Shown: piece by piece, positions 38,948-44,578 of the stretch | How positions within the stretch are numbered: the first letter of the stretch is position 1 | Layout: each line of letters starts with the position of its first letter | The notes under the pieces: generated by a model | Told to the model about the DNA's origin: nothing | Seen by the model: only the letters and a program-made list of their open reading frames with translations | The model's database searches: none | From: Octopus vulgaris | Lineage: Eukaryota | NCBI GenBank assembly: GCA_951406725.2 | Contig: OX597838.1 | Location: forward strand, 40,238,001-40,302,000 | Direction of reading: 5' to 3' | Length of the DNA stretch: 64,000 nucleotides | Program-made: the position numbers and the translations under genes

Positions 38948-39017
<70 letters not shown>

Positions 39018-39212
39018 GAAATATGTTACAAAAAGAAAATATAAAATACACGTGGAAATGTAAGGGGAAAATATGAAAAATCAACGAAAATGCATATTGT
39101 AAATAAAAAAAGAAAAGGCTTCTTATGAAAGGTAACGACAGATATATACATTTAGATGGACTGAAGTAATCATAAAAATCATTATTATGAGATGATTAAA
39201 AAGTCAGAAAGA

Positions 39213-39252
39213 AAAGCATACCATGGTTTCGTCATAAGCTATTCATTGTTTT
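39213..39252 (-). ncRNA. Hammerhead-like motif with A3-U8 core, downstream of the PLE ORF
   Basis: aaaaca ATGAATA gcttatgac GAAA ccatgg TA tgcttt. Confidence 0.5.
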
Positions 39253-39419
39253 GAATAAACACCGGCTAATGAACGGTGTCAGGTCTAATAGTTCCTGAGT
39301 AAAAAGAATATTTGTAAGGGAGGTAAGTAGTTCTGGATTTAGTGCAGTTGGGTTAGATATAGAATTGTAATGTGAATGGTGTAGGGAGTGTACAGGGGTT
39401 AGTAGTGTTAATTGAAGGG

Positions 39420-40222
39420 TTAGTGGTGTTCTGTATTAAGTTGTGTGTTCATATTTAGTTGGGGAAGATATTTATTGATGAAAATTGCCTCTTTATTTAA
39501 CCTTTGTTGCATTGAGGTGTTCTGTGAACATTGATAGAAGGGGAAGATTTGGAAATAAGGATTAAGATTCCTGACACACCTCTCTATGTGTTCACTAACC
39601 TGTAACTGTCTGTATTGTGGGTGGCAAATTTGTTCTTTATGGATGGTGGTTCTTCGATGGAGTGATATTCCTGTTTGTCCAATATAGTGGTTACCACATC
39701 CTAAGCATGTCATGGCATAGAGCAGATTTTCCGAGGCGCAGGTGAAATTTGATTTGATCTTAAATATTTCTCCTTGTTAGAAGTGAAATTCTGAACCCTC
39801 CAAAAGGTGGGGGCATGTTACACAGTTAGGACGACCACATTTTTTCACTTTTGGCTCTGTTGTTAGTGGATATAGTCTTACGCTGGTAAATATTTTTTTC
39901 AGTGACTTCGGTTGCTTTTTGATTTTTATAATTTTCTATGAGCTTAAAATTTCGTTCATTGTTTTGTCTACTGTGAGGATGGGAAGATTTTGGGCGATAA
40001 TGTTGAAGGCTTCGTTGTTTCTAGGGTTATGTGTGGAAACGTACGGGAGTATTTTTAAGTCTGGTTTGGTATTTCGGCTGGCTTGCCTTAATATTTGTAT
40101 ATCTATTTCCTTAGCTCTTTTAATGCCATCATTTATTAATGAGCTTGTGTAATGTCTTTTAGTTAGTGTTGATCTAAGTTCAAGGAGTCTTTGTTCACGA
40201 GTATATGTATCCGAAACTATGG
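39420..40222 (-). mobile_element. Penelope-like element fragment: RT thumb, Cys-rich linker and GIY-YIG endonuclease (Neptune-like)
   Basis: IVSD..REQRLLEL; LPYVSTHNP; KCGRPNCVTC; FTCASENLLYAMTCLGCGNHYIGQT..RTTIH; RLNKEAIFINKYLPQLN; contains stops. Confidence 0.9.
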
Positions 40223-40240
40223 TACAATATATATATGCAT

Positions 40241-40307
<67 letters not shown>

Positions 40308-40359
40308 AAATTAAAAAAGGAAAATACGCACACTTACATGGTTTTAATATAATTTTTAA

Positions 40360-40397
40360 TATATCGACCGGGTTTCGCTCTCGCTATTCATGATATA
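40360..40397 (-). ncRNA. Minimal hammerhead-like motif with A3-U8 core
   Basis: tatatc ATGAATA gc GAGA gc GAAA cccgg TC gatata. Confidence 0.65.
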
Positions 40398-40404
40398 ATG
40401 TTTA

Positions 40405-40454
<50 letters not shown>

Positions 40455-42330: not shown

Positions 42331-42427
42331 CATACATACATACATACATACATACATACATACATACATACATACACACATTTAACCATGCTTATATATA
42401 TATACCCGCATACATACAAAGGATATA

Positions 42428-43030
42428 GTGTTGGAGTTTAGTGAGGATAAATGTTGTTATATGGTTGTGAAAAGAGGGAAAACAGTAAACCAGACTAGCA
42501 ACATCTCCATCAATGACTTAACTGTTTCCCCTAGATCTGACGAGGAATGTTATAAGTATCTAGGGGTGGATGAAAACATATCTTACAATGGCATCTGTAA
42601 CAAAACACGTTTCACTAAAGAATATTACAGCCGAATAAAGAAAAGTTGGACCTCGGAACTCTCTGCATTCAATAAAACAGTGGCCCACAATGTGTTTGCA
42701 GTGCCAGTACTCATACCAACATTTTGGGCTGCTTGAGTGGACGCTTGATGAGATCTGAACAATTGATGAGAAAACCCGGAAGATACTAAGAAGCACACAT
42801 AATTTCCACATCAACAGTGACGTAGACCGCCTCTACCTAAAACGGAAACAAGGCGGCAGAGGCTTAACATCGATCCAATCTACCTTTGAATGTCGTATTG
42901 TATCCCTTCGGCAACATCTTTTAACTACCAAGTGTCGATGTGTATTCCTAGACCAAGTTTGCGTACATGAGGCTGATAACAACATAAGACTTGGAAGGCA
43001 GCTCTTTGAGCAGCATGAGAAGACAAACAT
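42428..43030 (+). mobile_element. R4/Dong-clade LINE internal fragment
   Basis: [28 protein letters not shown] and DVDRLYLKRKQGGRGL peptides. Confidence 0.85.
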
Positions 43031-44578
43031 AAAACAAACAAAAAAAAATACAAATATACATACATGCAAAAATACTCTGTTGCTGATGTTGAAGCTCCAA
43101 GGAAGGACCCTTGGATCTAGGTTAGAAACCGGCCCTTTCTCTATTGGCAAGGAATCTTGAAATAAAACTGACATACATACATACTACGAAGGAAAATAGG
43201 GATTTAATAAATCCAGATTAATACACTCTGTTTAATTAACCCAGTTACTAGGATGCCTAATCAAGTTTATATCAACCCGTTTAGGTTATTAATACCATAC
43301 GACAGTCCAAATCCGAAGTCCATCACTAATTAATAATTTGCCCTGCTAATCACAGTATATCAGTAATAAAATAAAGAATGAATAATTATATTCATACGAT
43401 CATTTATTCACTCGCATACGTTTCAAACGACTCAGTGAGATACATCCATGAAATATTGTAGTTTGCATGATTAATCGATCTAGTAATTATTGATCGATTG
43501 TTCAACCAATTTGTGAAACAGCCACCTAGGGATTCATCCTTCTCGGAACATTTAAAGTCAGATATTTAGGGAAGATATACAGAATCAGATTTGGCGGAAT
43601 GTGATAGGGGAAAGTGGTCTTATTGGATTGCCTTTCATTATTTAATACCCTATCGCGGGTTCACACACTTGGTAATAATATTACAAGACGCCAATGAAGT
43701 AAAATCGGCGAGATGTAAGGACTATAGCCTCCTTAATGCTTTAAGTGATTTGTCTATTGGCGAGGAGAATTAATCTAAGAGTGTGAGATTATTAAAGTGA
43801 ACACCAATATTCAGTAGAAAGTAGAATGTAATATCGTTGCCTTTATAGATTATTTGATATGTTTCAAGTTTACAACCGTTAAAAAATCCCATTGAATAAT
43901 ATAATATAAACTACGGTCGTTAAATAGAATTTCTTTAAAGGAAATATATTAAAAAGGGACGAAGTACATTAGGTTCGATGTGAAAATTATAGACAGGCGG
44001 TTAGAAAGTGGGGTGAATTTCGAAATATGATAGACCAGGCGACAAAATATTCAACTTTATTCTACTTGAGGTTCAGTTAAAGGATGTAGTGTGTTATTGA
44101 AGCTGAATTTGAATTTCGTAGCAGAAGTGCTTACGTAACACTGGACATTTCTAGGTGTTATTACCGAAAAATTAACAGATTATATTTTGTCTTAGATATT
44201 GGTAGTCCAGGAGCAGTTGTTACGTTTACTACACTTATCCCGGGAATTTATTGTACTTATGATAACGCTATTCACCGCATGAGAGATTATCAAATTAAAA
44301 CTCCCTATATTTTGCAGAGATATGAGATATGAACACTCTCTTCTTCCTTGGTAGCTGCATTTCTTTTATCAAAGGTGAGCCCAAATTGTTTTATACGTTC
44401 AGAGTAAGGACTAGTTTGTGTTTTCTTCACTTCGAAGGTTTTCAATATTTTCGTGTCGTGACCTGTTATAATTATCTCCCTTGTTAGATGTGGTAGAATA
44501 TGCAAATTATGCATATTATGCAAATTATGTGGTAGAATATGCAAATTATACTAGGACATTGCATGTCCTAGTATACCT

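What the first reader, a model, noticed from the sequence alone, without database searches (positions are those of the whole stretch)
39213..40397. A3-U8 minimal hammerheads on both sides of a GIY-YIG Penelope-like fragment
40397-40360 reads tatatc AUGAAUA gc-GAGA-gc GAAA cccgg UC gatata: 38 nt, perfect 6-bp helix I, 2-bp helix II capped by a GNRA tetraloop, GUC site, and core AUGAAUA instead of CUGANGA, a double change preserving the 3-8 pair. 39252-39213 repeats the same AUGAAUA core with different stems and the palindrome ACCATGGT, about 170 nt downstream of the endonuclease stop. The same non-canonical core in two different stem contexts argues against chance.
Basis: partly seen in the sequence, partly recalled or inferred. 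Interest (0 to 1): 0.72.

Follow-up and report, generated by a model that had tools for sequence, protein, structure and literature searches.

The report
Jumping-gene hammerheads with swapped core pair
These are two tiny hammerhead-shaped RNA motifs, predicted to cut themselves, from two different Penelope-type jumping-gene families that landed side by side; both replace the usual C-G core pair with A-U, and related families in the same genome carry G-C, U-A or C-G there, which likely means the pairing rather than the letters is what selection keeps, though cutting is untested.

Summary
Both motifs are present as described, and two such motifs in this window exceed chance (0 of 500 shuffles reach two). 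They do not flank one element. Motif B (39252-39213) is the 3' terminal-repeat hammerhead of a 5'-truncated Penelope-like element (family B). Motif A (40397-40360) is a 106-bp piece of a sister family (family A), set off by a (TA)n tract. Their helix I strands cannot pair with each other.

A3-U8 is family-wide: about 1,250 plus 77 genomic matches. There is no 3-8 covariation within family A. Between families there is: U-A, G-C and C-G all occur, and G3-C8 subfamilies sit basal to family B, so the pair changed compensatorily more than once. The family-A homodimer folds as a double hammerhead.

Against activity: in a published mutational scan only the G-C swap rescued this pair; one B subfamily spread with a damaged GAAA box; copies do not clearly begin at the cut; both window copies carry private defects. 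I found no natural A3-U8 or G3-C8 core in print (three key papers unreadable). This scan noted A3-U8 before on other DNA of this genome and in two other genomes. Verdict: new variant of a known kind.

The parts
40360..40397 (-). Motif A: minimal type I hammerhead, A3-U8 core (A3 40391, U8 40386), 6-bp helix I, 2-bp helix II, helix III palindrome with one extra C; predicted cut 40366/40365
40305..40410 (-). 106-bp piece of the 3' terminal repeat of Penelope-like family A; lacks the 3' tail that other copies carry
   Evidence: (1340 candidates, 40 scored; full-length hits 95-98% identical)
40227..40304 (.). (TA)n/(TG)n tract separating the two insertions
39015..40226 (-). 5'-truncated copy of Penelope-like family B (end of RT region, linker, GIY-YIG, 3' repeat), ending in (TA)n
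   Evidence: (2215 candidates, 40 scored, other copies 85-94% identical)
39936..40226 (-). Remnant of the region between RT core and linker; in-frame stop at 39938-39936
39813..39839 (-). C-x4-C-xx-C linker motif (Neptune/Nematis type)
   Evidence: motif definition from PMC8557442
39420..39776 (-). GIY-YIG endonuclease piece with CCHH residues; preceded by an in-frame stop at 39779-39777
39213..39252 (-). Motif B: minimal type I hammerhead, A3-U8 core (A3 39246, U8 39241), 8-nt palindrome, 1-bp helix II, private helix I mismatch at 39249; predicted cut 39219/39218

Best explanation
The window holds two separate, decayed insertions of sister Penelope-like retrotransposon families in one (TA)n tract, each carrying its family's terminal-repeat hammerhead motif with an A3-U8 core, and in intact elements two copies of the same family's motif likely pair through their palindromes into a double hammerhead that is predicted to cut slowly. 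Shown: two families, a family-wide A3-U8 core, all four Watson-Crick 3-8 pairs among families, and covarying helices I and III. Predicted by folding: the homodimer; no A-B heterodimer. Inferred: chemistry survives because residue 8 acts through its 2'-OH and needs its base only to pair with residue 3, while G12, the general base, is kept; the element's protein may assist folding, as for a lizard Penelope element. Inferred history: one flip from pyrimidine-purine (U-A) to purine-pyrimidine in the ancestor of A and B, then transitions between G-C and A-U through a G-U wobble. The two window copies are probably non-functional relics.
For: Genome counts against reversed-pattern controls, descriptor N3-UGA-N-N8-AG-N(3-14)-CGAAA-SSSS-UH. 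A3: 1393 vs 40; U8 in 90 of the first 100 rows, while N7 varies. Non-A3 with U8: 81 vs 27. G3: 193 vs 54, C8 in 56 of 100. C3: 240 vs 19, G8 in 57 of 100. Non-A3/non-U8: 7779 vs 91, U-A in 82 of 100. 6-nt palindrome class: 92 vs 5; all 77 A3 rows have U8. Row tallies were counted by hand. Same stems occur with A-U and with G-C. Protein tree: A plus the B lineage form a clade (support 0.998), sister to a U3-A8 family, with another U3-A8 family basal. Nucleotide tree with positions 3 and 8 masked: G3-C8 subfamilies basal, A3-U8 B clade nested (0.963). On 29 hand-picked representatives: 88% of cells paired vs 56% shuffled (0/500); 3-8 paired in 28 of 29 with five pair types. The family-A homodimer minimum-energy structure is the double hammerhead, -15.9 kcal/mol; monomer hammerhead folds are unfavourable. 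2'-OH of G8 as acid and G12 as base: PMC6155905, PMC6257768 (passages). A PLE hammerhead is protein-assisted and partly rescued by C3G/G8C: PMC11167929 (passages).
Against: No cleavage data. [quoted passage not shown] Helix II is only 1-2 bp and variable in family B. A B subfamily (12 of 97 copies, on several contigs, hand count) reads G-UAAA in place of GAAA yet spread. A small C3-A8 subfamily is also amplified, and 32 of 100 C3 rows have A8. 5' ends do not clearly pile up at the cut: 5 of 62 A copies at 0/+1, but four of them run into AT-rich sequence that resembles the post-cut bases; 1-2 of 97 B copies. Only the family-A dimer, of 8 pairs cofolded, gave the double hammerhead as its lowest-energy fold. 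Counts are copy numbers, not independent events; the 29 representatives were chosen by me. Tree supports are FastTree values on decayed copies, and the tree is midpoint-rooted.
Confidence: 0.68

Rival explanations
1. The motifs are catalytically dead or nearly so. The hammerhead-like dimer fold, including the 3-8 pair, is kept for a structural job such as RNA dimerisation or recognition by the element's protein.
For: A3-U8 did not rescue in a mutational scan. The G-UAAA subfamily keeps A3-U8 and compensatory helix I but has an altered G12 box. Hammerhead mutants did not affect insertion in vitro in a lizard PLE. No clear genomic footprint of cutting.
Against: The 3-8 pair forms in the active conformation and was not seen in minimal ground-state crystals (PMC3884650), so repeated compensation there points to the active fold. 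NUH is kept at the cut in the families seen, though the search patterns required it.
Confidence: 0.25
2. The 3-8 states are neutral founder accidents of a few master elements, and the pairing is coincidence amplified by copy number.
For: Few independent masters; no covariation within family A; mismatched cores exist, and one is amplified.
Against: Four Watson-Crick states dominate many different stem contexts. Mismatch classes are mostly single copies that resemble decayed members of paired families. At least three double changes are needed on the trees.
Confidence: 0.05
3. The two motifs are the 5' and 3' terminal-repeat ribozymes of one element and act together in cis.
For: Same strand, same core, 1.1 kb apart, on either side of an endonuclease piece.
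Against: Different families with different proteins; a microsatellite lies between them; cross helix I duplexes are +1.3 and +2.9 kcal/mol; none of the other 29 B loci has motif A upstream on the same strand.
Confidence: 0.02

Closest known systems
Minimal type I hammerheads in pseudo-LTRs of metazoan Penelope-like elements, including the U3-A8 families of Schistosoma mansoni (Cervera and de la Pena 2014, PMC4209133; main text parts 1-2 of 4 and supplement parts 1-2 of 3 read)
   Same: Type I topology, palindromic helix III implying dimers, G10.1-C11.1, position behind an RT-GIY-YIG frame, thousands of solo 5'-truncated copies, a compensatory 3-8 change.
   Different: Core is A3-U8 (and G3-C8 in sister subfamilies); all 56 motifs in their Fig. 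S3 start with C3 or U3. Helix II is 1-2 bp rather than long, and there is no extra base between A9 and G10.1.
Natural U3-A8 hammerheads (Perreault et al. 2011, PMC3088659; passages)
   Same: Natural covariation of the 3-8 pair.
   Different: Only C-G to U-A is named in the passages seen; here the purine-pyrimidine pairs A-U and G-C occur, with a tree linking them.
Small PLE hammerhead variants with diminished stem III that cleave as dimers (Lunse, Weinberg and Breaker, RNA Biol 14:1499; not held, title seen in a reference list, content recalled)
   Same: Dimer mechanism through a palindromic stem III in PLEs.
   Different: Unknown: I could not check whether it lists A3-U8 or G3-C8 cores.
Engineered C3G/G8C hammerheads (PMC11167929, PMC9901934; passages)
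   Same: A swapped 3-8 pair partly restores cutting, including in a PLE hammerhead.
   Different: Laboratory mutants; A3-U8 did not rescue in the type III scan.
Neptune/Nematis EN+ Penelope-like elements (PMC8557442; passages)
   Same: C-terminal GIY-YIG with CCHH, CX2-5CxxC linker, inverted truncated partners with a one-sided tail; (TA)n flanks.
   Different: Clade not assigned by RT phylogeny; no full pLTR-ORF-pLTR copy found in my sample.

Membership tests
Canonical PLE minimal hammerhead (CUGANGAH core) | C3 and G8 | tested here: not met
   A3 and U8 in both motifs and their families
Canonical PLE minimal hammerhead (CUGANGAH core) | Watson-Crick 3-8 pair | tested here: met
   A-U; between-family covariation
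Canonical PLE minimal hammerhead (CUGANGAH core) | U4 G5 A6 A9, G12 A13 A14, A15.1-U16.1, H17, G10.1-C11.1 | tested here: met
   Present in both window motifs; altered in one B subfamily
Canonical PLE minimal hammerhead (CUGANGAH core) | Palindromic helix III allowing a dimer | tested here: met
   Family forms ACCGGU and ACCAUGGU, duplexes -8.3 and -11.2 kcal/mol; window copy A imperfect, -6.9
Canonical PLE minimal hammerhead (CUGANGAH core) | Long helix II and an unpaired base between A9 and G10.1 | tested here: not met
   1-2 bp helix II directly after A9
Canonical PLE minimal hammerhead (CUGANGAH core) | Lies in the terminal repeat behind a PLE frame | tested here: met
   About 197 nt (B) and about 287 nt (A) behind the aligned end of the endonuclease in many copies
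Hammerhead ribozyme (function) | Site-specific self-cleavage after H17 | not testable with these tools
   No raw RNA reads were offered
Hammerhead ribozyme (function) | Genomic copies beginning at the predicted cut | tested here: inconclusive
   5 of 62 A copies (AT-rich confound), 1-2 of 97 B copies
EN+ Penelope-like element, Neptune/Nematis type | RT followed by C-terminal GIY-YIG with CCHH and a CX2-5CxxC linker | tested here: met
EN+ Penelope-like element, Neptune/Nematis type | pLTR-ORF-pLTR partial tandem | tested here: inconclusive
   No same-strand repeat pair around a frame in 20 loci of 7 kb or the shorter loci then held; inverted partners are common
EN+ Penelope-like element, Neptune/Nematis type | Inverted 5'-truncated partner; tail on one end only | tested here: met
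   L046/L047, L050/L054, L051/L059: one of each pair has the tail
EN+ Penelope-like element, Neptune/Nematis type | Placement in Neptune or Nematis by RT phylogeny | not tested
   No named reference elements in the tree
Non-LTR retrozyme | Non-coding tandem repeat with a hammerhead per unit | tested here: not met
   A and B are dispersed and linked to coding sequence

The most novel reading that the evidence does not exclude
One retrotransposon lineage has moved the hammerhead's catalytic 3-8 pair through all four Watson-Crick states in nature (C-G, U-A, G-C, A-U), and the A3-U8 form, which failed to rescue in a standard hammerhead, cuts in the dimeric, protein-assisted setting. Because each core in a dimer cleaves the partner strand, intact partners could have carried mismatched intermediates through the double-transversion flip. 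Core-fixed searches would then miss thousands of ribozymes per genome.
Probability: 0.4. Interest if true: 0.68.

Novelty: new variant of a known kind. Interest (0 to 1): 0.5.

Why it matters
It supplies natural, tree-ordered evidence for the 3-8 pair of the active hammerhead fold in the two orientations not reported in the papers I could read. It also gives a matched natural set (same stems, A-U versus G-C) for asking whether Penelope hammerheads are selected to cut or only to fold, which is an open question. Practically, a CUGANGA-fixed search would miss roughly 9,000 motifs of this class in this genome, about as many as the 8,088 canonical ones counted.

Tried and rejected
Rfam search: no hammerhead hit, only low-complexity miRNA matches.

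Monomer folding z-scores were uninformative (0.43, -0.01, -0.08, -0.62), as expected for dimer-type motifs.

The first genome pattern was mis-spaced and gave 66 matches vs 126 control, so it was not used.

Metagenome scan for related loci: 97 pattern hits, none confirmed; the extra scan was not used, so hammerheads of non-octopod relatives were not seen.

Sequencing runs: no RNA holder listed; only contigs were offered, so ends could not be read. In four runs under four organism labels no other letter was listed at positions 3 or 8, but cover was thin in one run and absence of a row proves nothing.

IQ-TREE timed out; FastTree was used instead. Dropped for short length: 4 rows (one for doubtful linkage) and 6 of 33. 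Three canonical CG-class rows misaligned and were left out. L123/L222 pairs a U-A-family frame with an A motif 943 nt away; it was treated as a composite and left out of the tree.

GNRA loop as a family feature: rejected. A3-U4-G5 kept as a start codon: unlikely as a general cause, since family B often has a stop three codons later and G3-C8 sisters lack AUG.

Three papers were not held: Lunse et al., Przybilski and Hammann 2007, Nelson and Uhlenbeck 2008. Supplements of PMC3088659 and PMC9901934 and all figures were not seen and may bear on novelty and on A3-U8 activity.

Full report
Observation. Both motifs are on the minus strand as described. Motif A has A3 at 40391 and U8 at 40386; motif B has A3 at 39246 and U8 at 39241, 168 nt behind the stop of a 118-residue GIY-YIG piece. 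The loose core pattern is not above chance in the window (4 vs 2.96). The full descriptor is: 2 found, and none of 500 shuffles reached 2. Rfam has no matching hammerhead model.

Two elements, not one. The genome is 2.8 Gb. The closest named relatives of a sister family's protein are from Argonauta and bivalves, so an octopod host is my inference. The stretch 40226-39015 is a 5'-truncated member of family B (2215 candidates, 40 scored). Other B copies continue past 40226 into reverse-transcriptase sequence. Motif A lies in a 106-bp piece of family A (1340 candidates, 40 scored), whose longer copies carry their own RT-linker-GIY-YIG frame, about 60% identical to B in protein. A (TA)n tract separates the two. 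Both families have the CX4CxxC linker and CCHH residues of Neptune/Nematis-type elements (definitions from PMC8557442, passages), and family A shows inverted partners with a one-sided tail. The B copy has two in-frame stops. Each window motif has a private defect: an extra C in A's palindrome and a helix I mismatch at 39249 in B.

The core is family-wide. Among 62 family-A copies collected by a downstream anchor, 55 span the core; 52 have A3 and 54 have U8, no more conserved than neighbouring positions, so there is no covariation inside the family. With A3 fixed and position 8 free there are 1393 matches against 40 for the reversed pattern; 90 of the first 100 have U8, while N7 varies. U8 without A3 gives 81 against 27. 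In the 6-nt palindrome class all 77 A3 rows, of 92 matches, have U8. Tallies of listed rows were counted by hand.

All four pairs occur between families. G3 gives 193 vs 54, with C8 in 56 of 100. C3 gives 240 vs 19, with G8 in 57 and A8 in 32 of 100. Non-A3/non-U8 gives 7779 vs 91, with U-A in 82 and U-G in 7 of 100. A separate canonical class with a CG palindrome has 8088 vs 43, so the canonical core is not rare genome-wide. On 29 representatives that I picked, helices I-III and the 3-8 pair covary (88% paired vs 56%, 0 of 500 shuffles; 3-8 paired in 28 of 29). The choice of rows favours this result, and the tool warns that relatedness inflates it.

History. A protein tree rooted on bivalve proteins places A and the B lineage together (0.998), sister to a U3-A8 family, with another U3-A8 family basal. 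In the B lineage G3-C8 subfamilies branch first and A3-U8 is nested, both in that tree and in a nucleotide tree with positions 3 and 8 masked (0.963). So A3-U8 in A and in B is separated by G3-C8 forms: either two gains or a reversal. The simplest path is one pyrimidine-purine to purine-pyrimidine flip, then transitions through G-U. G3-U8 copies exist but may be post-insertion decay. These trees use decayed copies and FastTree supports.

Mechanism. Monomer hammerhead folds are unfavourable for family forms (+2.2 to +5.0 kcal/mol). The family-A homodimer folds as the double hammerhead at -15.9, with helices I and III formed between strands. For family B only helix III is in the lowest-energy dimer, and A-B helix I strands do not pair. 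G12 is the base and the 2'-OH of residue 8 the acid (PMC6155905 and PMC6257768, passages), so a swapped pair can in principle keep catalysis. A lizard PLE hammerhead needs the element's protein, is partly rescued by C3G/G8C, and is dispensable for insertion in vitro (PMC11167929, passages). That A3-U8 dimers cut is inferred, at about 0.6.

Results against. In a complete double-mutant scan of a type III hammerhead only the G-C swap rescued this pair (PMC9901934, passages). Twelve of 97 B copies belong to a subfamily reading G-UAAA for GAAA that kept A3-U8 and a compensated helix I. A C3-A8 subfamily is amplified. 5' ends give no clean footprint of cutting: 5 of 62 A copies start at 0/+1, four of them in AT-rich sequence like the target; L294 alone joins family-A coding sequence to +1; B shows no peak.

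Comparison with print. Cervera and de la Pena report U3-A8 in Schistosoma PLEs, and their 56-motif alignment has only C3 or U3. Perreault et al. report natural U3-A8 (passages). Searches for A3-U8, G3-C8 and related strings found no natural report. Other papers seen: bioRxiv 2026.07.22.740005 (part 1 of 5); PMC6765202, PMC3884650, PMC10085705 and PMC7229834 (passages). Lunse et al., Przybilski and Hammann 2007 and Nelson and Uhlenbeck 2008 were not held, so novelty is provisional. Earlier notes of this scan describe A3-U8 in this genome, a probable frog and a phage; they are unchecked and not independent support.

Verdict. It works like a Penelope minimal hammerhead but fails the canonical C3/G8 and long helix II features, so I file it as a new variant of a known kind; interest 0.5.

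Noticed in passing
window 47750 downward, minus strand: A third minimal hammerhead-like motif with a U3-G8 wobble core, resembling another repeat family seen.
   Followed up: no
L329, L332, L359, L362, L363, L365, L376, L381, L387, L393, L394: Family-B subfamily with G-UAAA in place of GAAA, A3-U8 kept where the copy reaches it, and helix I compensated; dispersed over many contigs.
   Followed up: partly
L180-L186, L193-L195, L103-L106: Tandem repeats of about 360 bp with C3-G8 or U3-A8 hammerheads, retrozyme-like; a related C3-A8 tandem lies at G000:C4:80857199-80857949.
   Followed up: no
window 40338-40333, minus strand: GTAAGT, like a 5' splice site, about 27 nt behind motif A's predicted cut and conserved in family A; the core's A3-U4-G5 forms an AUG that is open up to it.
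   Followed up: no
L063:387-435, minus strand: G3-C8 hammerhead with a 5-bp helix II, AAUAUU palindrome and 7-bp helix I, with stems unlike the B-lineage G-C subfamilies; possibly another origin of G3-C8.
   Followed up: no
L294 near 1490: Family-A coding sequence joined to the base just after the predicted cut; a single possible template jump from a cleaved RNA end.
   Followed up: partly
L337, L371, L382, L405: Four family-B copies begin at the same place inside the core behind a G-rich run and (TA)n.
   Followed up: no
window 42386-43160, plus strand: Broken frames that look like a non-LTR retrotransposon RT by eye (recalled likeness); no Pfam hit.
   Followed up: partly
L220:779-4170, plus strand: Long frames (380 and 775 residues) that read like the endonuclease and RT of a LINE, beside a U3-A8 PLE piece.
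   Followed up: no
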